The notes beneath the pieces were generated by a model that saw nothing but the letters and a program-made list of their open reading frames with translations, did not search any database and was not told the origin of the DNA. From the IMG/VR virus record IMGVR_UViG_2718217869_000004: a stretch of 43,551 nucleotides of DNA; one strand, 5' to 3'. Shown here one piece after another: positions 1-43,551 of this stretch (positions within the stretch are counted from its first letter, which is position 1; every line of letters starts with the position of its first letter). A program made the position numbers and the translations under genes. Source of the DNA: a virus (taxonomy: Duplodnaviria > Heunggongvirae > Uroviricota > Caudoviricetes).

Positions 1-459
1 TTACTTACGGCCCGTAAACGGGCTGCCCGGATAGGGAATCGATAACTGCTCTCCCATTTTATCCTCTTCAAGCTGGTGCTTTATGTAGTCCTGTATCTTC
101 GCCGTGTTCTTACCCACCGTATCGACATAGTACCCTCGGCACCAGAACTCCCTGTTTCTGTATTTGAATTTCAAATCCCCAAACTGCTCGTAAAGCATCA
201 GACTGCTTTTCCCTTTCAGATATCCCATAAAGCCGGATACGCTCATTTTGGGTGGGATTTCCACAAGCATATGGATATGATCTGCGCGGCACTCTGCTTC
301 CAGAATCCGTACGCTTTTCCACTCACACAGCTTTCTCAAAATACTGCCTATCGCCCTACGCTTCTCTCCGTAAAACGCCAGTCTTCGGTATTTCGGCGCA
401 AAAACTATGTGATATTTACAGTTCCAGCGGGTGTGCGCTAAGCTCTTTTCGTCCCCCAT
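1..459 (-). CDS. tnpA: IS200 transposase TnpA (HUH/Y1 type, 152 aa)
   Basis: Translation MGDEKSLAHTRWNCKYHIVFAPKYRR... matches IS200 TnpA; start at second Met of the ORF gives 152 aa; stop codon at window positions 1-3. Confidence 0.9.
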   Translation of the reverse strand: MGDEKSLAHTRWNCKYHIVFAPKYRRLAFYGEKRRAIGSILRKLCEWKSVRILEAECRADHIHMLVEIPPKMSVSGFMGYLKGKSSLMLYEQFGDLKFKYRNREFWCRGYYVDTVGKNTAKIQDYIKHQLEEDKMGEQLSIPYPGSPFTGRK

Positions 460-650
460 TGGGACCCCCTTTTGATTTCTTGTTTGACACTTGCAGTTGC
501 CAGACCGCAAGGTGTTTTAACAAATCAAAAGGGGTTTTAATAACTGGCTCAAAGCTGAAAGCTTTCCGGAACCCCCAGCCTAGCTGGGGGTTTTCTGTGC
601 ACAAAAACAACGGGCGTATAACACGCCCGTTTCAATATTTAACACATGTA
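1..650 (-). mobile_element. IS200 (IS200/IS605 family) insertion sequence; right end cut by window edge, left end with subterminal hairpins abutting the icd fragment stop
   Basis: tnpA ORF plus about 190 bp of structured non-coding left end (hairpins cccccagcctagctggggg and aacgggcgtataacacgcccgtt); exact left boundary estimated. Confidence 0.8.
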
Positions 651-653
651 GAG

Positions 654-835
654 ATTACATGTTCTTGATGATCGCATCACCAAACTCTGAACATTTCAGC
701 AGTTTAGCGCCATCCATCAGACGCTCGAAGTCATAGGTTACAGTCTTGGCGTTGATTGCGCCTTCCATACCTTTAACAATCAGGTCTGCGGCTTCAGTCC
801 AGCCCATATGGCGCAGCAGTAGTTAGATGGTTCAT
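654..835 (-). pseudogene. icd: 3' fragment of isocitrate dehydrogenase gene (icdC-like att-site duplication at prophage end)
   Basis: Minus-strand translation ...[54 protein letters not shown] is the Icd C-terminus; similarity stops abruptly near 835. Confidence 0.85.
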
Positions 836-1263
836 ATACAACCGCATGATAAATAAAAATAATCCTATAATTTTATTGTAAATCAACTGGCTTTTATCTT
901 TCCCCTAACCTATTGATTATCAATGTATGTTTTTTGGTTTTGATAACCGTTTTAGAGGGCAAAAACAAGTGCCTGTACCTATCAGCCCCTTCACGGCAAA
1001 GGGATTTTAAATCATGCGTGTTTTCACAAACTATCAATGGCTTAACTAAATTTTTCGCCAATAACGTACGCTGTGAGTGAGAGGTGGATATGAAGTTACA
1101 CACTCCCGGAAAATAAAGAATTGAGCGTTATCTCATGCTATTAATGAAAAGTGTTTGCTTAATAGATTACATATAACTATGATTCAAGCCCAATTAAAGT
1201 CGTGTGTCTTTGGCTTAAATTGGCAAACAAACAATCAAGTCAAGAATATAAAGGAACTATTCA

Positions 1264-2232
1264 ATGAATAAGAATTATAAAACGTTTAAACTTGAACTAT
1301 GGGAGAAGTTTAAGCATCAATGTGCTTACTGTGGCACTAAACTTTATGAACCATTGATGGCGGATGTTGATCGTTTTTTCCCAAAATCAAAGTATACTGA
1401 CTTCCAAGATGCTACAGACAACCTGCTCATCGCTTGTAAGGCATGTAGCATGATTAAAAAAGATCAGTTTCCTCTCGATGAAAATGGCAAACCATTACTT
1501 CTAAATCCTTTAAATGAAAGTTTTTCAGAACATATAAAACAAAATAAAAATGGATATTTAGAAGGTTTAACTGAGCGAGGACATGCGACTATAGATATAT
1601 TACAGTTGAATAGACCTTCATTAATTGAACAGCGCATTCTAGATGTTATTGATATGCAGTACTCTGATGATCGAACGCTATCTGAACGAGATGTCTATAT
1701 GACATTCCAAAATAGTATGCAGAACGCCATAAAACTAAATGATGCTCAGTTAAAAATTGATAGCACTTTACAAATACAAATGTCGTATATGCTATATGCC
1801 AATACAATAACTTCCTTGGAAACATATTTATGTGACAGATTTATTTCCCTAATTCATGGTAGCCAAACTAATTTGAGAAATTTTGTTGAAACCTTCAAAG
1901 ATTACAATACAGAAAAATTCTTACTTTCTGAATTATTTATAAGGCATGAACAAATAGAGTCTCAAGCGATAGAGTCTATGAAGAGTGTTCTTTATCATAA
2001 TCTGCCAAAAGTAAGTGGCATGTATCGAGATACCTTTGGTATTAAATTCCCTGTTTTCACAGAAGTTTATAAAAGCGTGTTAATTAGGCATGACTTAGTT
2101 CATCGAGCAGGTAAAACAAAAAATGGTAATTTTCATAAGTTAGATTCAGAGTCAGTTAAAGATGTTATCAAAAAATGCTGTGACTTGGTTGAACAACTAG
2201 AAAAAGAGCTTAAAGATTGTGCATCATTCTAG
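1264..2232 (+). CDS. HNH-like nuclease-fold protein (322 aa) with degenerate N-terminal HNH motif and unknown C-terminal domain; AT-rich cargo gene
   Basis: CAYCGTKL...VDRFFPKSKY...DNLLIACKACSMIKKD resembles a C-x2-C...(D/E)H..P.S...NL..C..C HNH finger but with Arg in place of the His and no Asn; strong AT bias versus phage core. Confidence 0.75.
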   Translation: MNKNYKTFKLELWEKFKHQCAYCGTKLYEPLMADVDRFFPKSKYTDFQDATDNLLIACKACSMIKKDQFPLDENGKPLLLNPLNESFSEHIKQNKNGYLEGLTERGHATIDILQLNRPSLIEQRILDVIDMQYSDDRTLSERDVYMTFQNSMQNAIKLNDAQLKIDSTLQIQMSYMLYANTITSLETYLCDRFISLIHGSQTNLRNFVETFKDYNTEKFLLSELFIRHEQIESQAIESMKSVLYHNLPKVSGMYRDTFGIKFPVFTEVYKSVLIRHDLVHRAGKTKNGNFHKLDSESVKDVIKKCCDLVEQLEKELKDCASF

Positions 2233-2428
2233 GTAATTGCCACCAAATCGAAGGTGATCGCGCTTGCGGTCACCAAAAGTAATAAACTATTCATTCCCAT
2301 TCGATCATCTGAACCAACACAATTTTATTTAATAAAGTTGACCTACTTCATTATTTGATACCCATCCAATGTGCGCAAGGGCTGCTTCTGGCACATGGTT
2401 ACCCTTGATGAGAAGGTAGATCACCGCC

Positions 2429-2546
2429 ATGGGGTGTCGGGGGCGGAGGTTCAAATCCTCTCGTGCTGACCAAAAATCCTCGAAGAACCAGCCTGTTACG
2501 GCTGGTTTTTTTTGCCTGTTTTCTGAACGGGGAAGCAATGGGGAAA
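2429..2546 (+). repeat. Direct repeat copy 1: tRNA-Pro-like 3' fragment (T-arm GGTTCAAATCC, acceptor 3' strand, CCA) plus downstream hairpin/T-run
   Basis: atggggtgtcgggggcggaggttcaaatcctctcgtgctgacca followed by ccagcc-tgttac-ggctgg-ttttttt; near-identical copy at 3600-3716; no 5' tRNA half upstream. Confidence 0.75.
2486..2513 (+). terminator. Rho-independent terminator-like hairpin inside direct repeat copy 1
   Basis: aaccagcc tgttac ggctggtt followed by a T8 run. Confidence 0.55.
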
Positions 2547-2735
2547 TTAGCTTACGGTTGACCCCACTGCGAAAAGCGCAGATTTTTATCAATGGACGTA
2601 CATAGGGTAGATAAGGCACAATACTGCTTCAATGTCGTCTGATGGTATTGTAATACTAATTACATCAGATGATTTAACTAGATTAGTTCTTTATAGAAAT
2701 CATTCTTGAATATTAATTGGCTGACTGAGGTTTTT

Positions 2736-3521
2736 ATGGATGAAAAATACAGAAGATTTGTTGATGAGGTTGACTTTTCAAGACAATTATTAGGCATAGG
2801 GCTCACTTCCCTAAGGAAAGCAAATTTTGCAAGTAGAGGATTGTATTTTCAAGCATTATCCGGCATCAGTTTAGGATTAGAAAGGCTTATGAAACTTTGC
2901 CTTATGCTTGATGATTATAATAAAAATGGAAAATATACATCACGCAAAAAATTAAGAGATTACGGTCATAACTTAAGCAAGTTATTCAACCTAGTCATTG
3001 AGAGAGTTGATTCTCCCTCTGGCTTAAATGAAATTCACTACAGAGTGATGGAGTTGTTAACTAATTTTGCAAATTCATCAAGATATAGTAATATTGATTT
3101 CATTACTAATGACAACGACAATGATCCCATGAAGCAATGGTATAATGAAATCGATAAGAGCATTTACGATGAAATATTAACAAAAAGACAAAAAAATATA
3201 ATTGATAAAAAATGCGAGCAATACCGAAGCTATGGTGAAACACTGCCATGCTATGTGCTTGGATATTATGATGAAGACAGAAACCATATAAACTCTGCAG
3301 GGGATTTAAATTATTTACTTAAAAGAAGTGAAATGCTTGCTGGTTATCGCACTTTATTAGTTATTCATATCATAGAATGCATCTATAACATATTAGACTC
3401 AATGACAGTTCAAGCAAAAGATAATCACTTCCACCATCTTGAATTAGGTCGTTTTTTTGCAACCATCATTTATGGCTCTGATAGAGACAAAATCAATAGA
3501 AAAAATTTTATCCGTATGTGA
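2736..3521 (+). CDS. Hypothetical protein (about 261 aa), AT-rich, unrecognised family; candidate accessory/defence gene
   Basis: Long ORF with GAGG RBS 6 nt upstream of ATG at 2736; sits exactly between the two tRNA-fragment direct repeats. Confidence 0.7.
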   Translation: MDEKYRRFVDEVDFSRQLLGIGLTSLRKANFASRGLYFQALSGISLGLERLMKLCLMLDDYNKNGKYTSRKKLRDYGHNLSKLFNLVIERVDSPSGLNEIHYRVMELLTNFANSSRYSNIDFITNDNDNDPMKQWYNEIDKSIYDEILTKRQKNIIDKKCEQYRSYGETLPCYVLGYYDEDRNHINSAGDLNYLLKRSEMLAGYRTLLVIHIIECIYNILDSMTVQAKDNHFHHLELGRFFATIIYGSDRDKINRKNFIRM

Positions 3522-3599: not shown

Positions 3600-3716
3600 A
3601 TGGGGTGTCGGGGGGCGGAGGTTCAAATCCTCTCGTGCCGACCAAAAATCCTCGAAGAACCAGCCTGTTACGGCTGGTTTTTTTGCCTGTTTTCTGAACG
3701 GGGAAGCAATGGGGAA
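3600..3716 (+). repeat. Direct repeat copy 2: tRNA-Pro-like 3' fragment plus terminator hairpin
   Basis: atggggtgtcggggggcggaggttcaaatcctctcgtgccgacca...ccagcctgttacggctggttttttt; differs from copy 1 by a few indels/substitutions. Confidence 0.75.
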
Positions 3717-4111
3717 TTACAGGGGAAAAACCCCGTCAAATGTTGCCCCCGTATCGCTAGCACACAATGATTAAGTATCTTTTTCACTTTCGGAATTCAT
3801 CAATTCACAAAACCATCATTCCGATTTACCTTACATGCTCCTTTTAAATCTTTAACGGTGTGCACCACTTTTTCTAACTGCCCTATACTTTCAGTCTGAC
3901 ATACGGCTGGAGGTTTCTATGTGTGGACGCTTTTCACAGTCAATGACCCGTGAAGATTATCTTGCCCTTCTCGCTGATGAATCAGAACGCGATATTCCAT
4001 ACGATCCAGAACCCATCGGAAGATTCAACGTAGCGCCAGGAACAAAAGTTCTGCTTCTGAGCGAACGTGATGAGCAGTTGCATCTTGATCCAGTTATCTG
4101 GGGATACGCCC

Positions 4112-5450
4112 CATAAGCGCTAACTTAAGGGTTGTGGTATTACGCCTGATATGATTTAACGTGCCGATGAATTACTCTCACGATAACTGGTCAGCAATTC
4201 TGGCCCATATTGGTAAGCCCGAAGAACTGGATACTTCGGCACGTAATGCCGGGGCTCTAACCCGCCGCCGCGAAATTCGTGATGCTGCAACTCTGCTACG
4301 TCTGGGGCTGGCTTACGGCCCCGGGGGGATGTCATTACGTGAAGTCACTGCATGGGCTCAGCTCCATGACGTTGCAACATTATCTGACGTGGCTCTCCTG
4401 AAGCGGCTGCGGAATGCCGCCGACTGGTTTGGCATACTTGCCGCACAAACACTTGCTGTACGCGCCGCAGTTACGGGTTGTACAAGCGGAAAGAGATTGC
4501 GTCTTGTCGATGGAACAGCAATCAGTGCGCCCGGGGGCGGCAGCGCTGAATGGCGACTACATATGGGATATGATCCTCATACCTGTCAGTTCACTGATTT
4601 TGAGCTAACCGACAGCAGAGACGCTGAACGGCTGGACCGATTTGCGCAAACGGCAGACGAGATACGCATTGCTGACCGGGGATTCGGTTCGCGTCCCGAA
4701 TGTATCCGCTCACTTGCTTTTGGAGAAGCTGATTATATCGTCCGGGTTCACTGGCGAGGATTGCGCTGGTTAACTGCAGAAGGAATGCGCTTTGACATGA
4801 TGGGTTTTCTGCGCGGGCTGGATTGCGGTAAGAACGGTGAAACCACTGTAATGATAGGCAATTCAGGTAATAAAAAAGCCGGAGCTCCCTTTCCGGCACG
4901 TCTCATTGCCGTATCACTTCCTCCCGAAAAAGCATTAATCAGTAAAACCCGACTGCTCAGCGAGAATCGTCGAAAAGGACGAGTAGTTCAGGCGGAAACG
5001 CTGGAAGCAGCGGGCCATGTGCTATTGCTAACATCATTACCGGAAGATGAATATTCAGCAGAGCAAGTGGCTGATTGTTACCGTCTGCGATGGCAAATTG
5101 AACTGGCTTTTAAGCGGCTCAAAAGTTTGCTGCACCTGGATGCTTTGCGTGCAAAGGAACCTGAACTCGCGAAAGCGTGGATATTTGCTAATCTACTCGC
5201 CGCATTTTTAATTGACGACATAATCCAGCCATCGCTGGATTTCCCCCCCAGAAGTGCCGGATCCGAAAAGAAGAACTAACTCGTTGTGGAGAATAACAAA
5301 AATGGTCATCTGGAGCTTACAGGTGGCCATTCGTGGGACAGTATCCCTGACAGCCTACAAAACGCAATTGAAGAACGCGAGGCATCGTCTTAACGAGGCA
5401 CCGAGGCGTCGCATTCTTCAGATGGTTCAACCCTTAAGTTAGCGCTTATG
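4112..5450 (+). mobile_element. IS186 (IS4 family), 1339 bp, with 23-bp terminal inverted repeats and 10-bp target duplication
   Basis: Ends CATAAGCGCTAACTTAAGGGTTG ... CAACCCTTAAGTTAGCGCTTATG; flanking direct repeat GGATACGCCC at 4102-4111 and 5451-5460. Confidence 0.9.
4167..5279 (+). CDS. IS186 transposase (370 aa)
   Basis: Translation MNYSHDNWSAILAHIGKPEELDTSARNAGAL... matches the IS186 transposase; lies between the IRs. Confidence 0.9.
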   Translation: MNYSHDNWSAILAHIGKPEELDTSARNAGALTRRREIRDAATLLRLGLAYGPGGMSLREVTAWAQLHDVATLSDVALLKRLRNAADWFGILAAQTLAVRAAVTGCTSGKRLRLVDGTAISAPGGGSAEWRLHMGYDPHTCQFTDFELTDSRDAERLDRFAQTADEIRIADRGFGSRPECIRSLAFGEADYIVRVHWRGLRWLTAEGMRFDMMGFLRGLDCGKNGETTVMIGNSGNKKAGAPFPARLIAVSLPPEKALISKTRLLSENRRKGRVVQAETLEAAGHVLLLTSLPEDEYSAEQVADCYRLRWQIELAFKRLKSLLHLDALRAKEPELAKAWIFANLLAAFLIDDIIQPSLDFPPRSAGSEKKN

Positions 5451-5936
5451 GGATACGCCCCCGGTTGGTGGGATAAACCGCCGCTCATTAATGCACGGTC
5501 TGAAACTGCTGCCACCAGCAGAATGTTTAAACCACTCTGGCAGCATGGCCGCGCAATTTGCTTTGCTGATGGATGGTATGAGTGGAAAAAGGAAGGCGAC
5601 CAAAAACAACCCTACTTTATTCACCGGGCAGACGGTCAGCCGATTTTTATGGCGGCGATCGGCAGCACACCATTCGAACGTGGAGATGAAGCAGAAGGTT
5701 TCCTGATAGTTACAGCTGCAGCTGACAAAGGACTGGTTGATATTCACGACAGACGACCACTGGTACTGCTACCGGAAGCCGCGCGTGAATGGATGAGGCA
5801 GGATGTTGGAGGGAAAGAAGCAGCGGAAATTGCAGCCGACGGTGTTGTACCGGCTGATAAATTTATATGGCACGCCGTAACGCGTGCCGTCGGGAATGTG
5901 AAAAATCAGGGCGCCGAACTAATAACGCCAATATGA

Positions 5937-6358
<422 letters not shown>

Positions 6359-6360
6359 GG

Positions 6361-6603
6361 CTAAAGTCCTCCGTTTGGATTGAACAGCTGAAAGGTTCGG
6401 TTCTCGCCTTCCTGCGTTGATACATCGCGGAATGTTGTCACATAACATTCTATCCAATCGTTGGCCTGCTTCATCGTCCAGTGCCAGTTAACCTTACCCA
6501 GTTCCTGGACAAACCGCTGTGTGGTGACAGTCTTCCGGCCATTCGGTTCTCGCTGTATCGAAGCATGCCAGGCTATTTCAATATCGCTACGTTGTGGCAT
6601 CAT
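6361..6603 (-). CDS. Hypothetical small protein (about 80 aa) immediately upstream of and translationally coupled to the UmuD-like gene; possibly ImpC-like
   Basis: ORF MMPQRSDIEIAWHASIQREPNGRK...; its stop is 2 nt from the UmuD-like ATG; LexA box 40 bp upstream; start codon choice uncertain. Confidence 0.5.
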   Translation of the reverse strand: MMPQRSDIEIAWHASIQREPNGRKTVTTQRFVQELGKVNWHWTMKQANDWIECYVTTFRDVSTQEGENRTFQLFNPNGGL

Positions 6604-6642: not shown

Positions 6643-6662
6643 CACTGTGTATCCATCCAGTA
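6643..6662. promoter_or_regulatory. LexA (SOS) box between divergent dinI-like and small-ORF/umuD-like units
   Basis: cACTGTgtatccatcCAGTa fits CTG-N10-CAG consensus TACTGT(AT)4ACAGTA; 16 bp upstream of the dinI-like start. Confidence 0.65.
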
Positions 6663-6677
6663 AAGAGGCAATAAGCA

Positions 6678-6920
6678 ATGTTCGTGGAACTCGTTTATGA
6701 CAAAAGGAATTTTGATGGCCTGCCCGGTGCAAAAGATATCATTCTGGGCGAATTGACTAAGAGGGTTCACCGGGTCTTCCCTGATGCTGATGTCCGGGTA
6801 AAACCGATGATGACACTGCCGGCGATCAACACTGACGCCAGCAAGCATGAGAAGGAACAGATAAGCCGTACTGTTCAGGAAATGTTTGAAAAGGCTGATA
6901 TGTGGCTGGTTTCAGATTAA
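6678..6920 (+). CDS. dinI: DinI family protein (DNA damage-inducible protein I homologue, 80 aa)
   Basis: Size and C-terminal ...QISRTVQEMFEKADMWLVSD resemble DinI (...QRISEILQETWESADDWFVSE); AGAGG RBS; LexA box upstream. Confidence 0.8.
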   Translation: MFVELVYDKRNFDGLPGAKDIILGELTKRVHRVFPDADVRVKPMMTLPAINTDASKHEKEQISRTVQEMFEKADMWLVSD

Positions 6921-7048: not shown

Positions 7049-7600
7049 TCAACGCCGCGCAGGAAATTTTTTGTATAGCGTCGACACCCCTACATCATAA
7101 ATTATAGCCACACGTTTTCTAGACTCACCTGCAGCAATCAACCTTCCAGCCTGAGCCCACTCTTCTGCGGTTAACTTTGGTCGTCTGCCGCCGATCCGAC
7201 CATCTTCGCGCGCAGCAGCTAAGCCAGCCCGTGTTCGCTTAACAATAAGCTCTCTTTCCATCTCGGCAAGCGCCCCCATGACATGAAAGAAAAAGCGCCC
7301 CATTGGTGTTGAGGTATCTATACTGTCGGTCAGGCTACGGAAGTTTACCCCTCGCTCCCTCATTTCTTCGACCAGCACGACAAGATGCCGCATGCTGCGA
7401 CCGAGGCGATCCAGCTTCCAGACAACCAGAGTGTCACCTTCCGATAATGTCCTGAGCAGTTTTTTCAATCCCGGCCTTTCGGACTTTGTACCGCTTATCT
7501 TGTCTTCAAAAATCAGCTCGCATCCTGCACAGTTCAGCGCATTACGTTGTAGATCTGTGTTCTGGTCATTTGTTGACACACGTACATAGCCAATAAGCAT
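7049..7600 (-). CDS. pin: Pin/Gin-family DNA invertase (serine recombinase)
   Basis: MLIGYVRVSTNDQNTDLQRNAL...VVWKLDRLGRSM...HTH tail; typical resolvase/invertase motifs; next to the invertible tail-fibre segment. Confidence 0.9.
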   Translation of the reverse strand: MLIGYVRVSTNDQNTDLQRNALNCAGCELIFEDKISGTKSERPGLKKLLRTLSEGDTLVVWKLDRLGRSMRHLVVLVEEMRERGVNFRSLTDSIDTSTPMGRFFFHVMGALAEMERELIVKRTRAGLAAAREDGRIGGRRPKLTAEEWAQAGRLIAAGESRKRVAIIYDVGVSTLYKKFPARR

Positions 7601-7654
7601 GGTAGATCTCCCTGACAAAAGCAGGGATGATGCCATTTGCTCGTTATTTCTGCA

Positions 7655-7680
7655 TTTTCATAAATGTTGGTTTGGGAGAA
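7655..7680. other. Inversion crossover site 1 (gix/pix-like 26-bp site)
   Basis: TTTTCATAAATGTTGGTTTGGGAGAA; reverse complement shares half-site TCTCCCAAACC-AA with site 2 and resembles gix TTATCCAAAACC. Confidence 0.65.
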
Positions 7681-8169
7681 GGCTCTGCATTACCTGTTGG
7701 TGTCCCTGTTCCGTGGCCCTCAGCCACTCCGCCAACAGGCTGGCTAAAATGCAACGGAGCAGCTTTTTCTGCTGAAGAATATCCGGAACTGGCAAAGGCT
7801 TACCCGACAAATAAATTGCCTGATTTACGCGGTGAATTTATCCGTGGCTGGGATGACGGGCGTGGTATTGATGCTGTACGTGCCTTGCTAAGTCTTCAGA
7901 ATGGAGGAGTGGAATCACACACCCACCAAGGGCAGCTCTTCAGAGTTAGTGATTATCGTACAAAAGAAATACCAGCATCAGAAGTTATGGGAAGAGGATA
8001 TATTGCAAGCCTGACGCCGGGTGCTGATAGCCCACTTGATTTTGATGATTATTCTGTATCTTCTAATCCAAATGGATATTTTGTCGGGAATCAGAGAACA
8101 ACAGCATATGGGATAAATGAAACCCGTCCACGGAATATTGCATTTAACTATATCGTGAGGGCTGCATAA
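7669..8169 (+). CDS. Alternative tail-fibre C-terminal variable segment (silent in current orientation)
   Basis: ORF ...GAAFSAEEYPELAKAYPTNKLPDLRGEFIRGWDDGRGID... typical fibre tip; frame at the crossover site matches the constant fibre N-terminus after inversion. Confidence 0.7.
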   Translation, partial: GLGEGSALPVGVPVPWPSATPPTGWLKCNGAAFSAEEYPELAKAYPTNKLPDLRGEFIRGWDDGRGIDAVRALLSLQNGGVESHTHQGQLFRVSDYRTKEIPASEVMGRGYIASLTPGADSPLDFDDYSVSSNPNGYFVGNQRTTAYGINETRPRNIAFNYIVRAA

Positions 8170-8771
8170 TGGATAATGCTGTATTAAATAGCGAGTTTAT
8201 TGCTACAAAGGCGGGGAATATTACCGTCTATAACTATGATGGCGAAACACGGGAATATATTTCCACATCAACTGAATATCTTGCCGTTGGTGTCGGTATC
8301 CCTGCATATTCCTGTTTAGATGCCCCTGGCACATACAAAGCTGGTTATGCAATCTGCCGATCTGTAGATTTTAACTCATGGGAATATGTGCCAGACCATC
8401 GCGGTGAAATCGTCTTTAGCACCGAAACAGGAGAATCAAAAGAAATCACAGCTCCGGGTGATTACCCTGATAATACAACCACTATCGCCCCGTTAACGCC
8501 ATACGATAAATGGGATGGTGAGAAATGGGTGACGGATACCGAAGCACAGCATAGCGCCGCAGTAGATGCAGCAGAAGCACAGCGCCAGTCACTGATTGAT
8601 ACTGCAATGGCTTCAATCAGTCTGATTCAGCTGAAATTGCAGGCCGGACGTAAACTGACGCAGGCAGAAACAACCAGCCTTAACGCTGTGCTGGATTACA
8701 TTGACGCGGTGACGGCAACAGATACCAGCACCGCGCCGGATGTCATCTGGCCTGAACTGCCGGAGGCGTAG
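8169..8771 (+). CDS. tfa: Tail fibre assembly protein (Tfa, alternative cassette)
   Basis: MDNAVLNSEFIATKAGNITVYNYDGETREY... Tfa-like; conserved C-terminal ...DAVTATDTSTAPDVIWPELPEA shared with the other Tfa. Confidence 0.8.
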   Translation: MDNAVLNSEFIATKAGNITVYNYDGETREYISTSTEYLAVGVGIPAYSCLDAPGTYKAGYAICRSVDFNSWEYVPDHRGEIVFSTETGESKEITAPGDYPDNTTTIAPLTPYDKWDGEKWVTDTEAQHSAAVDAAEAQRQSLIDTAMASISLIQLKLQAGRKLTQAETTSLNAVLDYIDAVTATDTSTAPDVIWPELPEA

Positions 8772-41117: not shown

Positions 41118-41363
41118 ATGCTTCAAATGCTGACACTTGAGGAATGGGCTGCAGAAAAATTTAGGAGTAATCCTCCAAGTGTGTCCACATTGCGTCGTTA
41201 TGCTAAGCAGAATTTATTTTGTCCACCGGCAATGAAACAAGGTCGACTGTGGCGAGTACGTGAGGACGCAGAGTTAGTTGGGGAATTAGTTACTCCAGTA
41301 ATCAAGAAAAGTGATTCTATTATTCTGCAAAGGATTTTAAGCAATGGCAGCCAGACCACGTAA
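41118..41363 (+). CDS. xis: Excisionase (Xis)
   Basis: 81-aa ORF immediately upstream of and overlapping int; ...LTLEEWAAEKFRSNPPSVSTLRRYAK... excisionase-like. Confidence 0.8.
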   Translation: MLQMLTLEEWAAEKFRSNPPSVSTLRRYAKQNLFCPPAMKQGRLWRVREDAELVGELVTPVIKKSDSIILQRILSNGSQTT

Positions 41364-42471
41364 AAATAATGTTTCAGTACCTAACTTGTATCCGCTTTAT
41401 AGCAGAAAAGTAAATAAAGTCTATTGGCGATATAAGCATCCAGTGACCGGGAAATTTCATTCGTTGGGCACAAATGAAGCTGAAGCTATTGCTATTGCCA
41501 CTGAAGCTAACACTCGTCTGGCTGAGCAAAGAACCCGGCAGGTTCTAGCTATCAGTGATAGGATCGCAACCAGCAAAGGAAAAACTATAACAACATCATC
41601 ATGGTTAGAGCGTTACCAAGCTATTCAGGATGACAGGCTGAAAAGTGGTGATATAAAGCTCAACACCTATAAACAGAAAGCCAAACCAGTATCCTTGCTC
41701 AGGGAACGAGCAGGAATGAAGTTAATTTCATCCGTTGATGTAAGGGATATCGCACAATTGCTTGACGAGTATATCACTGCCGGGCAACCGAGGATGGCGC
41801 AAGTAGTCCGCTCCGTTCTAATTGATGTATTCAAGGAGGCACAACACTATGGGGAGGTCCCTCCTGGCTATAATCCAGCATTAGCGACCAAACAGCCCAG
41901 AAGAAAAATTACCCGACAACGGTTAAGTCTTGAAGAATGGCAAAAAATCTTTGATATCGCAGATGCCAGTCATCGTTATATGGGGAATGCCATGCTGTTA
42001 GCACTGGTTACCGGTCAGAGGTTAGGTGATATCTCGCGTATGAAATTTAGCGATATTTGGGATGATCATCTTCACGTCATCCAGGAAAAAACCGGGAGCA
42101 AAATCGCCATCCCGCTTTCCCTGCGCCTCAATGCAATTAACTGGAGTTTACGCGATGTAGTAGCCCGCTGCCGTGACTATGCAGTCAGCCCATACCTTGT
42201 ACATTTTTTTCGTACGACTTCACAGGCTGAACGTGGCGCGCAGGTTAAAGCCAATACATTGACGATGAATTTCACTAAAGCGAGGGATTTGGCGGGAATT
42301 GATTGGGGGGATGGAACTCCTGCAACATTCCATGAACAACGGTCTTTATCTGAACGTCTATACAAAGAACAGGGGTTAGACACACAAAAGTTGCTGGGAC
42401 ATAAATCACCTAACCAAACAGCTCGATACCATGATGATCGTGGGAAAGATTGGGTTAAAGTAGCCCTCTGA
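41344..42471 (+). CDS. int: Tyrosine integrase (lambda Int family, e14 IntE-like)
   Basis: 375 aa, MAARPRKNNVSVPNLYPLYSRKVNKVYWRYKHP...; C-terminal catalytic region ...HEQRSLSERLY...LGHKSPNQTARYHDD. Confidence 0.9.
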   Translation: MAARPRKNNVSVPNLYPLYSRKVNKVYWRYKHPVTGKFHSLGTNEAEAIAIATEANTRLAEQRTRQVLAISDRIATSKGKTITTSSWLERYQAIQDDRLKSGDIKLNTYKQKAKPVSLLRERAGMKLISSVDVRDIAQLLDEYITAGQPRMAQVVRSVLIDVFKEAQHYGEVPPGYNPALATKQPRRKITRQRLSLEEWQKIFDIADASHRYMGNAMLLALVTGQRLGDISRMKFSDIWDDHLHVIQEKTGSKIAIPLSLRLNAINWSLRDVVARCRDYAVSPYLVHFFRTTSQAERGAQVKANTLTMNFTKARDLAGIDWGDGTPATFHEQRSLSERLYKEQGLDTQKLLGHKSPNQTARYHDDRGKDWVKVAL

Positions 42472-42504: not shown

Positions 42505-43551
42505 TTAGCGTACCGCTGGTTCTGCTTGAGCTGGCGGATCATTAGGTATGATCAAATTAAACTGACCACGAGCAACATGTCCGTTTTCGGTCACTTCTAA
42601 ATAGCTAATTCTTACTACCTCACCAGTCACAATAGCGGAGGCAAGCGCCTGTAACTCAACCGGGCGAGCAATATCCTCAGCTACTTTTATAGTAAAACTC
42701 TCTCCATTACTGACCCGGATCACACTTAAGTTTAACTCAGAGCTTGATATTCCGGATCGAGAGAGCCCCTTAATATAAAAGTTATCAAAGCGTTCTGTTC
42801 TTTCTCTGTCAACACTTTGCCTGTTTCGATAATCCTGAAGGGCTGCACCATCATATTGTTGATTTCCGATCTTTACGGACTCAGCATCTGACGCGACCGA
42901 TTTAAGCAAAGAGGACTTTCCATCTTCACCATGTGCTTCAATTTCGCGGCTAAGACTAGTTTCTCCCCTACGTTTGACCTCTCTCCCCAACTCAAATGAG
43001 CGTGTCATACCATCTACTACCGTTTGAGTCGTCTGAGTTTGAGCATTTAAGTCTGCGGCATGATCTTGGCTATTTGTGTACAAATAATAGCAACCACCTA
43101 CCGTCAAAGCGGTAATCAGTGCTAGCAAAATTGTCATTTTCTGAACGCCAGTCATACCTTCAAACGCTCCCGTGAGGAATGCAAGAAACTGATTAATGGT
43201 ACCTGACCAGTCAGTCTCTGAATCAGTAGAACCTTCCTTTATTTTAAATATAACATCCAAAGACTGTTTATCTTCATTAGTCAGCCTTTGTAAATTTGAG
43301 GTGCCATACTTCGCCAATGCATAAGCACGTTGAAATGACTCATGCATACTCGCCAAGCCATACACCATAGAGCTAGTCAGTGAAGAATGAAATTTTTCAC
43401 CTTTTACATTGATATGAAGATTCGGCCACCCTTGAAAATCTATATCTGCAGGTATATCAGCACCGGGATGTTCGGTTTCCTTTTGTAGAAAATCATCCAC
43501 AACGTTCCAAAATGTTTCTGCATTCTCAATAACAATTGCTGCATCAGTCAT
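42505..43551 (-). CDS. Hypothetical membrane-anchored protein (at least 348 aa; N-terminus at window edge, may be truncated); AT-rich cargo next to int
   Basis: Single central hydrophobic helix MTILLALITALTVGGCYYLY between two soluble domains; convergent with int. Confidence 0.7.
   Translation of the reverse strand: MTDAAIVIENAETFWNVVDDFLQKETEHPGADIPADIDFQGWPNLHINVKGEKFHSSLTSSMVYGLASMHESFQRAYALAKYGTSNLQRLTNEDKQSLDVIFKIKEGSTDSETDWSGTINQFLAFLTGAFEGMTGVQKMTILLALITALTVGGCYYLYTNSQDHAADLNAQTQTTQTVVDGMTRSFELGREVKRRGETSLSREIEAHGEDGKSSLLKSVASDAESVKIGNQQYDGAALQDYRNRQSVDRERTERFDNFYIKGLSRSGISSSELNLSVIRVSNGESFTIKVAEDIARPVELQALASAIVTGEVVRISYLEVTENGHVARGQFNLIIPNDPPAQAEPAVR

What the first reader, a model, noticed from the sequence alone, without database searches (positions are those of the whole stretch)
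1264..2232. AT-rich degenerate-HNH protein occupies the slot where e14 carries mcrA: candidate novel nuclease-type defence or exclusion gene
Between pin and the icd att fragment, where e14 carries the HNH restriction enzyme McrA, this element has a different 322-aa protein. Its HNH-like finger is N-terminal (CAYCG...DRFFPKS...DNLLIACKACSMIKK) with Arg replacing the catalytic His and no metal-binding Asn, followed by an unrecognised 240-aa domain. Strong AT bias indicates recent horizontal acquisition.
Basis: partly seen in the sequence, partly recalled or inferred. Interest (0 to 1): 0.7.

Follow-up and report, generated by a model that had tools for sequence, protein, structure and literature searches.

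The report
Prophage HNH-zinc-finger plus HEPN RNase gene
This is a real, rare, horizontally acquired prophage gene that joins a Septu/retron PtuB-type HNH zinc-finger domain (its catalytic histidine naturally replaced by arginine) to an intact HEPN RNase domain related to one proven to block phages, so it is most likely a single-protein anti-phage suicide RNase of a new domain design, though this is untested.

Summary
The ORF at 1264-2232 (+, 322 aa) is real, 32% G+C, and lies beside the icd' attachment fragment of an E. coli Ecol_545 prophage, in the slot that mcrA fills in e14. Only 7 of 5,426 complete E. coli genomes carry it.

Residues 1-156 are a PtuB-type HNH domain with an invariant Cys4 zinc finger. 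Arg37 replaces the catalytic His and Ser62 the metal-binding Asn. The "unrecognised 240-aa domain" is the rest of the PtuB-like domain plus a RiboL-PSP-type HEPN domain with an invariant R275-x4-H280 motif.

That HEPN domain is 28% identical (E 6e-13) to the HEPN protein of validated system DS-33. There the HEPN protein alone defends, and mutating the equivalent Arg sharply reduces defence against T7.

Across 16 divergent full-length relatives the HNH His is missing in 6-7, while the four Cys and the HEPN motif are invariant. The Arg37 allele stayed under purifying selection (dN/dS 0.115).

Relatives are solitary cargo of prophages, a P4-like satellite and an integron-like array, with no PtuA partner.

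Best reading: a stand-alone abortive-infection HEPN RNase whose dead HNH finger acts as a sensor. It is a new variant of a known kind, with no experimental test yet.

The parts
1070..1263 (+). Upstream region that travels with the gene (candidate native promoter and ribosome-binding site)
   Evidence: Window 1070-2396 aligns at 85.7% with the Serratia satellite locus L002, and 1048-2545 at 96% with Citrobacter L093. There is one sigma-70-like match at 1220-1247, TTGGCA-16-AAGAAT, but such matches are no more frequent here than chance. AGGA lies 8 nt before the ATG.
1264..2232 (+). CDS, 322 aa; PGAP 'HNH endonuclease' WP_032162444.1
   Evidence: The exact protein is seen on 463 contigs. The DNA is 100% identical in all 7 complete E. 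coli genomes that carry it.
1264..1731 (+). PtuB-like HNH (beta-beta-alpha-Me) domain with following helices, aa 1-156
   Evidence: PADLOC PtuB E 1.1e-23, aa 6-156. NCBIfam PtuB 6.6e-8, aa 9-155 matching profile positions 37-203 of 218, below cut-off. The family profile hits solved PtuB chains at 2.7e-7 to 1e-5. Foldseek of the AF2 model (pLDDT 86.7) has retron Ec78 and Septu PtuB as top hits.
1321..1332 (+). First CxxC pair of the zinc finger (C20, C23)
   Evidence: Invariant in 30/30 and 16/16 homologues. Corresponds to the C43/C46 pair of the Cys4 finger of Retron-Eco7 PtuB, which is essential for defence (PMC12673091).
1372..1374 (+). Arg37 codon (CGT) at the HNH general-base His position
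   Evidence: His in 28/30 close homologues and 9/16 divergent clusters. Aligns with His of the group II intron maturase, 8w2z and McrA. Codon is CAC in Serratia and Enterobacter, CGC in Citrobacter, CGT here.
1435..1449 (+). Second CxxC pair (C58, C61) followed by Ser62 in place of the metal-ligand Asn
   Evidence: The Cys are invariant. Position 62 is N in 24/30 and 8/16. Codon AGC here against AAC in the closest His-bearing alleles.
1741..2223 (+). HEPN domain of the RiboL-PSP type, aa 160-320, all-helical
   Evidence: Pfam PF18735 E 0.011 here (below cut-off), but 12/30 family members match, best 5.7e-9. phrog_29321 2.7e-19. 28% identity, E 6e-13, to the DS-33 HEPN protein. AF2 domain model pLDDT 92.8. 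PGAP names plasmid homologues 'HEPN domain-containing protein'.
2086..2106 (+). R275-H-D-L-V-H280-R281: HEPN Rx4H catalytic motif
   Evidence: Invariant in 30/30, 42/42 and 16/16 aligned homologues. R275 aligns with R258 of the DS-33 HEPN protein, whose R258A mutant cuts protection against T7 from 3.8 to 0.8 log.
2429..2545 (+). tRNA-Pro 3' fragment plus terminator, first copy (context: end of the cassette)
   Evidence: Direct repeats D1/D2/D8 with 3600-3716. This stretch matches annotated tRNA-Pro in other E. coli genomes. The Citrobacter locus ends its homology here and lacks the next gene.

Best explanation
The gene encodes a stand-alone defence protein carried by mobile elements. It most likely acts by abortive infection or superinfection exclusion.

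Shown:
- It fuses an almost complete PtuB-type HNH/Cys4 zinc-finger domain (aa 1-156) to a RiboL-PSP/DS-33-type HEPN domain (aa 160-320).
- The zinc finger and the HEPN R275-x4-H280 motif are invariant across the family.
- In this allele the HNH general-base His is Arg and the Asn ligand is Ser.
- The allele has remained under purifying selection.
- No PtuA or other conserved partner gene accompanies it.

Inferred:
- The lysogen makes the protein constitutively from its own promoter.
- The HNH-derived finger no longer cuts nucleic acid. It serves as the binding, sensing or regulatory module, as the zinc-finger domain does in RAZR.
- On infection by another phage the HEPN domains pair into a composite, metal-independent RNase site.
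- This RNase cleaves cellular and phage RNA (tRNA, rRNA or mRNA), stops translation and aborts the infection, which protects the prophage-bearing clone.

The trigger and the RNA target are unknown.
For: Domains:
- N-terminus: PADLOC PtuB 1e-23, solved PtuB chains by profile and by fold.
- C-terminus: HEPN_RiboL-PSP in 12/30 family members, best 5.7e-9.

Functional anchor: the HEPN domain is 28% identical (E 6e-13) to WP_014639476.1 of DS-33.
- Wild type gives 3.3-5 log protection against T7, T3, Bas67 and Bas26.
- Deleting the GNAT partner keeps defence.
- Deleting the HEPN gene abolishes it.
- R258A, which aligns with R275 here, cuts T7 protection to 0.8 log (PMC13092281 Table S7).

HNH activity is dispensable but its fold is essential:
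- In 16 clusters that are at most 50% identical, His is replaced in 6-7 (R, N x3, A, S, C).
- In the same 16, the four Cys and R-H-D-x-x-H-R are 16/16.
- PtuB H57A abolishes Retron-Eco7 defence, so His is normally catalytic (PMC12673091).

This allele is not a pseudogene:
- The E. coli and Citrobacter copies both carry R37/S62 and differ by 20 synonymous and 10 non-synonymous changes.
- dN/dS is 0.115; P = 2.8e-8 against neutrality. One of the synonymous changes lies inside the Arg codon.

Context: a solitary gene at prophage ends or int-proximal accessory regions in E. coli, Citrobacter, Enterobacter and Pantoea. It also sits at the end of a P4-like satellite beside a type I R-M island in Serratia, in an integron-like cassette array in Vibrio, and next to a TIR-TPR gene in Pseudomonas.

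Modularity: the same HEPN module carries many alternative N-termini, with 494 clusters at E<=1e-30 and only about 17 carrying HNH. This is typical of sensor-effector immune proteins.

Architectural precedent: RAZR/PD-T7-4 is a zinc finger plus HEPN Abi RNase (PMC13017515).
Against: - No experiment exists on this protein or any full-length homologue.
- The window protein itself is below Pfam's and NCBIfam's curated cut-offs for HEPN_RiboL-PSP, PtuB and TIGR02646.
- No PADLOC model covers the HEPN half.
- The sensing role of the HNH finger is purely an analogy.
- Most close relatives keep an apparently intact HNH, so the ancestral protein may need both nucleases and this allele could be weakened.
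- All seven E. coli copies are identical, so they say nothing about selection.
- A candidate 'HNH1' (301 aa, an unrelated accession) was cloned for testing in DefensePredictor.
Confidence: 0.55

Rival explanations
1. It is a dual nuclease or restriction-like enzyme whose HNH domain is still the working DNA (or tRNA) nuclease in this allele. It would act like McrA or PtuB on invading nucleic acid, with HEPN secondary.
For: The N-terminal domain is homologous to PtuB, whose HNH is the effector of Septu and Retron-Eco7. PADLOC type IV REase model 2.3e-11. It occupies the e14 mcrA slot. 28/30 close homologues keep D/E-H and most keep N.
Against: Here the general base His is Arg and the Asn ligand is Ser. 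H-to-A at this position kills PtuB-dependent defence. His is lost repeatedly in the family while HEPN never varies. There is no McrA-like 5mC-binding domain and no similarity to McrA beyond the motif. No PtuA ATPase is nearby.
Confidence: 0.1
2. The E. coli/Citrobacter allele is a functionally dead or decaying remnant. H37R/N62S inactivated a protein that needs both nucleases, and the ORF merely persists in a young prophage lineage.
For: Two substitutions lie at catalytic positions, plus P45T at a 93%-conserved position. The neighbouring genes are decaying, with SRAP split by IS421 and the S24 peptidase frameshifted. All 7 E. coli copies are identical, so there is little time depth.
Against: Since acquiring R37/S62 the lineage shows 20 synonymous against 10 non-synonymous changes (dN/dS 0.115, P = 2.8e-8). 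HNH-domain dN/dS is 0.17 and HEPN 0.076, and the Arg codon itself changed synonymously. The ORF is intact in both species. Independent His losses in other clusters argue that His-less forms are viable designs.
Confidence: 0.12
3. It is a toxin that serves the mobile element rather than host immunity. It could be an addiction or post-segregational killing RNase, or a phage-encoded RNase used during lytic growth for host shut-off or competition.
For: HEPN domains are common toxins of toxin-antitoxin modules (PMC3710099). HEPN-domain homologues occur in phage genomes such as Pseudomonas phage LKA5 and in phrog_29321. The gene always rides on mobile elements.
Against: No conserved small neighbour or MNT-type antitoxin appears in any of seven contexts. 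The gene sits in lysogenic accessory positions with its own upstream region, not inside lytic operons. Its closest characterised relative is a defence protein.
Confidence: 0.13

Closest known systems
DS-33 HEPN protein WP_014639476.1 (DefensePredictor, Science 2026, PMC13092281; working id 'GNAT')
   Same: Homologous C-terminal HEPN domain: 28% identity over 181 aa, E 6e-13. Its R258-x4-H263 aligns with R275-x4-H280 here. Similar size (320 aa) and from E. coli. The HEPN protein alone gives multi-log phage protection, which depends on the motif Arg.
   Different: Its N-terminus is a PF18870-like 'HEPN/RES NTD1'-type domain with no HNH or zinc finger. It is encoded next to a dispensable GNAT gene. 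Overall the two proteins are unrelated outside the HEPN half.
PtuB of Septu and of type I-A retrons (Retron-Eco7/Ec78)
   Same: Homologous HNH domain with the same Cys4 zinc finger and following helices (PMC12673091).
   Different: There is no PtuA ATPase partner and no retron. A HEPN domain is appended. The catalytic His (H57 in Eco7 PtuB) is Arg here. Scores are far below the NCBIfam equivalog cut-off (32.7 against 150 bits).
RAZR / PD-T7-4 (ring-activated zinc-finger RNase; Nature 2026, PMC13017515)
   Same: A single polypeptide with an N-terminal Cys4 zinc-binding domain and a C-terminal HEPN RNase. It is an abortive-infection effector in which the zinc-finger domain sets specificity. It is often found next to integrases on mobile elements.
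   Different: A different zinc domain (zinc ribbon, not HNH-derived) and a different HEPN family (DUF4145, not RiboL-PSP). No PADLOC PD-T7-4 hit was found. Ring-scaffold activation is not implied by any evidence here.
McrA (EcoKMcrA) of e14
   Same: The same chromosomal slot at the pin-proximal, icd' end of an icd-integrated prophage. It also contains an HNH motif.
   Different: No significant similarity (best E 0.15 over 28 aa). McrA's HNH is C-terminal and catalytically intact, with an N-terminal 5mC-reader domain and no HEPN.
PD-T4-2_B and other RiboL-PSP-HEPN proteins (Anantharaman et al. 2013, PMC3710099; Vassallo et al. 2022, PMC9519451)
   Same: The same Pfam HEPN family label (PF18735). 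PD-T4-2 is a validated E. coli defence system.
   Different: No PADLOC PD-T4-2 model matched the C-terminal domain. HNH fusion is not among the architectures listed for this family in the 2013 survey, which lists an L-PSP fusion and a ParB operon.

Membership tests
PtuB (Septu / retron I-A HNH effector; NCBIfam NF041761, TIGR02646) | HNH beta-beta-alpha-Me domain with Cys4 zinc finger homologous to PtuB | tested here: met
   PADLOC PtuB models down to 1.1e-23. The family profile hits solved PtuB chains at 2.7e-7. Foldseek top hits are PtuB. C20/C23/C58/C61 are invariant.
PtuB (Septu / retron I-A HNH effector; NCBIfam NF041761, TIGR02646) | Catalytic general-base His (H57 in Retron-Eco7 PtuB) | tested here: not met
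   Arg37 occupies the column. Most relatives keep His.
PtuB (Septu / retron I-A HNH effector; NCBIfam NF041761, TIGR02646) | Adjacent PtuA ABC/SMC-type ATPase gene, and curated model score reached | tested here: not met
   No ATPase lies next to the gene in the window or in six other contexts. NF041761 scores 32.7 bits against a cut-off of 150; TIGR02646 scores 17.7 against 52.15.
HEPN superfamily, RiboL-PSP-HEPN family (Pfam PF18735) | Match to the family profile at the curated threshold | tested here: inconclusive
   The window protein scores 16 bits against a cut-off of 28.4, E 0.011, covering 166-317 of the protein and 23-190/191 of the profile. 12 of 30 aligned homologues match at E<=0.01, best 5.7e-9.
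HEPN superfamily, RiboL-PSP-HEPN family (Pfam PF18735) | Conserved Rx4-6H motif | tested here: met
   R275-HDLV-H280 is invariant in every alignment.
HEPN superfamily, RiboL-PSP-HEPN family (Pfam PF18735) | All-alpha HEPN fold similar to solved HEPN structures | tested here: inconclusive
HEPN superfamily, RiboL-PSP-HEPN family (Pfam PF18735) | Metal-independent RNase activity through a dimeric composite site | not testable with these tools
   Needs biochemistry or multimer modelling.
DS-33 (DefensePredictor) | Homologous HEPN effector with the catalytic Arg aligned | tested here: met
   BLASTP 28% identity over 181 aa, E 6e-13; R275 aligns with R258.
DS-33 (DefensePredictor) | The same N-terminal domain and the adjacent GNAT gene | tested here: not met
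   The alignment covers only aa 140-309. The N-terminus here is HNH. No GNAT gene is in the neighbourhood.
RAZR / PD-T7-4 | Zinc-ribbon ZFD plus DUF4145-type HEPN | tested here: not met
   No PD-T7-4 model appears among the PADLOC hits to the C-terminal half at E<=10. Pfam gives PF18735, not DUF4145. The zinc domain is HNH-derived.
McrA-type type IV restriction enzyme | N-terminal modified-cytosine reader plus catalytically intact C-terminal HNH | tested here: not met
   No similarity outside a 28-aa motif (E 0.15). The HNH is N-terminal and lacks His.

The most novel reading that the evidence does not exclude
This may be a family caught in evolutionary transition. A PtuB-type HNH nuclease, freed from its PtuA partner and fused to a HEPN RNase, would be repeatedly losing its catalytic His while keeping its zinc-finger fold. 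On this reading it has been exapted as a catalytically dead sensor or gate that couples recognition of a phage-derived ligand (nucleic acid or protein assembly) to HEPN RNase activation. The E. coli/Citrobacter R37/S62 allele would then be a natural 'dead-HNH' version that still defends. That would give a ready-made separation-of-function system for asking what PtuB-like domains actually recognise.
Probability: 0.35. Interest if true: 0.6.

Novelty: new variant of a known kind. Interest (0 to 1): 0.45.

Why it matters
If it defends, this would add a new single-protein architecture (PtuB-type HNH finger plus RiboL-PSP-type HEPN) to the E. coli immune repertoire. It would also show that the variable end of icd-integrated, e14-like prophages is a swap site for different defence genes, with mcrA in K-12 and this gene here.

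Natural His-plus alleles (Serratia, Enterobacter) and His-minus alleles (E. coli, Citrobacter) are about 80-83% identical. That pair allows a clean test of whether the HNH domain acts as an enzyme or as a sensor. The answer bears on the unresolved question of how PtuB-type domains choose DNA or tRNA substrates (PMC12673091).

Practically, PGAP's label 'HNH endonuclease' is misleading for this allele. The likely active site is the unannotated HEPN domain.

Tried and rejected
1. McrA orthology. Rejected: no similarity beyond the HNH motif.

2. A two-gene system with the downstream 261/271-aa gene. Rejected. The two genes are separated by a tRNA-Pro fragment. The Citrobacter locus has the target and the fragment but not the second gene. 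No other context carries it.

3. A conserved upstream partner, suggested by 406- and 407-aa ORFs upstream in Vibrio and Pseudomonas. Rejected: the two are unrelated and have no Pfam hits.

4. A hidden PtuA partner. None was found in any context.

5. Structural confirmation of the HEPN fold.
- Foldseek against PDB and BFVD gave nothing significant.

6. tRNA and Rfam scans. There is no intact tRNA; the only Rfam hit is STnc490 inside IS200.

7. Literature searches.
- 'HNH-HEPN', 'HEPN_RiboL-PSP' and RiboL-PSP+HNH+HEPN returned nothing relevant.
- WP_032162444 is not in the held, partly truncated DefensePredictor tables.
- The tested candidate 'HNH1' (WP_252151320.1, 301 aa) could not be compared because its sequence is not held.

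8. Promoter and terminator scan. Matches are no more frequent than in shuffled sequence, so no promoter is claimed.

9. Equating the Serratia position with the psu-int hotspot of P4 described by Rousset et al. Not claimed: there the gene lies after the primase gene, at the other end of the satellite.

Full report
OBSERVATION

The window is the chromosome of E. coli Ecol_545 (100% match). It spans a roughly 42-kb prophage integrated in icd. An icd 3' fragment lies at 655-807 (-), and a lambda-type integrase at 41344-42471 abuts icd at 42505-43551.

The ORF at 1264-2232 (+) is as described. It is 322 aa with an ATG start and AGGA 8 nt upstream, and the protein contains the quoted strings. G+C is 0.31-0.35 across the gene against about 0.5 around it. 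PGAP calls it 'HNH endonuclease' WP_032162444.1.

In K-12 e14 the order at this end is pinE-mcrA-icdC, so the slot claim holds. Here, though, pin (7049-7636) is 4.8 kb away. Between it and the target lie:
- a second AT-rich gene;
- two tRNA-Pro 3' fragments;
- an SRAP gene split by IS421;
- a frameshifted S24-peptidase gene;
- dinI.

WHAT THE PROTEIN IS

N-terminal half. Residues 6-156 match PADLOC PtuB models down to E 1.1e-23. They match NCBIfam PtuB at 6.6e-8, covering profile positions 37-203 of 218 but far below the equivalog cut-off. A profile of 30 homologues hits solved PtuB chains of retron I-A/Ec78 and Septu (2.7e-7 to 1e-5). The AlphaFold model (pLDDT 86.7) has those same chains as its only significant Foldseek hits in the PDB. 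According to the Retron-Eco7 structure paper, PtuB is an HNH domain with a Cys4 zinc finger. H57A and the Cys-to-Ala mutant both abolish defence (PMC12673091).

C-terminal half. Pfam gives HEPN_RiboL-PSP at E 0.011, sub-threshold, over residues 166-317 and nearly the whole profile. 12 of 30 homologues match the same model, best 5.7e-9. phrog_29321, of unknown function, matches at 2.7e-19. The domain models confidently as all-helical (pLDDT 92.8).

EXPERIMENTAL ANCHOR

The supplement of the DefensePredictor paper (PMC13092281) holds the sequence of WP_014639476.1, the HEPN protein of validated system DS-33. Residues 140-309 of the window protein align to it at 28% identity, E 6e-13. R275/H280 align with R258/H263.

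The plaque data of Table S7 show:
- wild type protects by 3.8 log (T7), 3.3 (T3), 4 (Bas67) and 5 (Bas26);
- deleting the GNAT partner leaves this intact;
- deleting the HEPN gene abolishes it;
- R258A cuts T7 protection to 0.8 log.

A homologous HEPN module is therefore necessary and sufficient for phage defence in E. coli, and that defence depends on the Arg that is conserved here. The N-termini differ, since DS-33 has a PF18870-like domain.

THE 'DEGENERATE HNH'

Among 30 homologues of at least 37% identity, C20, C23, C58 and C61 are invariant. Position 37 is His in 28, Arg only here and Gln once. Position 62 is Asn in 24. Pairwise alignments place Arg37 on the catalytic His of a group II intron maturase, of 8w2z and of McrA. 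They place Ser62 on the Asn of IscB.

It is not, however, a one-off lesion.
- A Citrobacter freundii copy (96% identical protein, also at icd') carries the same R37/S62.
- The two copies differ by 20 synonymous and 10 non-synonymous substitutions. dN/dS is 0.115 overall, 0.17 for the HNH half and 0.076 for the HEPN half. P is 2.8e-8 against neutrality.
- The Arg codon differs synonymously: CGT against CGC, with CAC in the Serratia and Enterobacter His alleles.
- An exhaustive HMM search of 1.84 billion representatives found 494 clusters at E<=1e-30. Only about 17 cover both domains.
- In 16 of these, His is replaced in 6-7 (R, N, N, N, A, S, and a shifted H/C) and Asn62 in 8. The four Cys and the HEPN R-H-D-x-x-H-R are 16/16.

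The comparative pattern says the zinc-finger fold and the HEPN site are indispensable, while HNH catalysis is not.

CONTEXT

The gene is in 7 of 5,426 complete E. coli genomes, always at this locus and 100% identical. The exact protein occurs on 463 contigs of the large collection. No sequenced phage or plasmid record holds a full-length homologue. Those collections hold only HEPN-domain relatives, several of which PGAP names 'HEPN domain-containing protein'.

Homologues are always solitary cargo of mobile DNA:
- Serratia: after the primase gene of a P4-like satellite, beside a type I R-M island;
- Pantoea: between the immunity region and int of a lambdoid prophage;
- Vibrio parahaemolyticus: an integron-like cassette array;
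- Pseudomonas koreensis: beside an integrase fragment and a TIR-TPR gene;
- Enterobacter: at a prophage end after umuDC-like genes;
- Citrobacter: between dinI and S24/dinI at icd'.

No PtuA ATPase, antitoxin-like gene or other conserved neighbour accompanies it. Two similarly sized upstream ORFs proved unrelated. A 1.3-kb module (window 1070-2396), including about 190 bp upstream, is 86% identical between E. coli and Serratia.

The HEPN module occurs with other N-termini, including zinc-ribbon-like CxxC domains and PF18870. This is the modular sensor-plus-effector pattern of immune proteins.

MECHANISM

Shown: the domain composition, the invariant zinc and HEPN residues, the loss of the HNH catalytic residues, purifying selection, and the solitary mobile context.

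Inferred from established HEPN biology (PMC3710099) and from DS-33 and RAZR: the lysogen expresses the protein. An infecting phage supplies a trigger that is recognised through the HNH-derived finger. HEPN domains then pair into a composite RNase site, RNA cleavage halts translation, and the infection aborts.

RAZR/PD-T7-4 is the best-understood architectural analogue. It is a zinc-finger plus HEPN Abi RNase whose finger sets specificity (PMC13017515). It uses a zinc ribbon and a DUF4145-type HEPN, and nothing here implies ring-scaffold activation.

I put 0.55 on this explanation. The rivals are:
- an HNH that is still active (0.10);
- a dead allele (0.12);
- a toxin that serves the element, or a lytic-cycle RNase (0.13).

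COMPARISON AND NOVELTY

The protein is not a PtuB. It has no catalytic His and no PtuA, and it scores below cut-off. It is not McrA and not RAZR. It is not a DS-33 orthologue, because the N-terminus differs and there is no GNAT gene.

It shares one domain with PtuB and another with DS-33. The combination was not found in the literature searched. It is not listed among RiboL-PSP-HEPN architectures in the 2013 HEPN survey.

I class it as a new variant of a known kind: single-protein HEPN abortive-infection effectors with swappable N-terminal modules. Interest is moderate (0.45). The class is well populated and no phenotype exists. The recurrent natural loss of HNH catalysis under purifying selection is still an attractive, directly testable handle on what PtuB-like domains sense.

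Noticed in passing
window 2706-3521 (+); PGAP start 2736: A second AT-rich orphan gene (261/271 aa, hypothetical WP_032162445.1). It belongs to a small family in Enterobacterales, Aeromonas and Pasteurellaceae with invariant E49-R50, G77-H78 and R116-Y-S-N119, and only a weak Pfam HEPN hit (E 0.18; one homologue has a precomputed PF05168 hit). In Klebsiella michiganensis its homologue sits in a P2-like prophage between tail gene S and baseplate gene V, a moron-type position. It may be another defence candidate.
   Followed up: partly
window 2429-2545 and 3600-3716: 117-nt direct repeats (99-100% identical) that consist of a tRNA-Pro 3' fragment plus its terminator hairpin. They bracket the 261/271-aa gene. 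In other E. coli genomes an intact tRNA-Pro is followed directly by the SRAP gene. The Citrobacter locus has one copy and no bracketed gene. This looks like the footprint of a small element that integrated into a tRNA-Pro-derived att sequence carried inside the prophage. ARAGORN finds no intact tRNA.
   Followed up: partly
window 3919-4116 and 5448-5936, with 4161-5279: An SOS-response-associated peptidase (SRAP/YedK-like) gene is split by an IS421 (IS4-family) insertion in this strain. It is intact in strains AH01 and GF8.
   Followed up: partly
window 5937-6457 (-) and dinI about 6650-6900: A UmuD-like S24 peptidase gene is frameshifted in all copies inspected, and a DinI-family gene lies next to it. 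Together they form an SOS-related accessory block between the defence-type genes and pin. Similar S24/DinI or UmuDC-like genes flank the target's homologues in Citrobacter and Enterobacter.
   Followed up: no
window 1-510 (-) and 469-592 (-): An IS200C tnpA (Y1 transposase) with the Rfam STnc490 Hfq-binding RNA (146 bits) in its 5' region. It is inserted between iraM and the icd' fragment in this strain only. A second IS200C copy lies 1.5 kb further out (L001).
   Followed up: no
L002 10294-13135 (Serratia): Downstream of the Serratia homologue, beyond an integrase fragment, an AAA_21/AAA_15 ATPase (587 aa) and a 361-aa protein with no Pfam domain sit next to type I R-M genes. This is a separate, possibly OLD/Septu-like system on the opposite strand. 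It is not conserved in other contexts.
   Followed up: no
P0047, P0049, P0050, P0058, P0060 (homologues, not in window): The same HEPN module is fused to other N-termini. One is a CxxC...CxxC zinc-ribbon-like domain, giving a RAZR-like layout. Another is a PF18870-type domain, as in DS-33. About 480 of 494 strong clusters lack the HNH domain.
   Followed up: partly
window 7049-9231: A Pin-family invertase lies next to opposed tail-fibre and tail-fibre-assembly genes. This is an invertible host-range segment, as in e14, Mu and P1.
   Followed up: no
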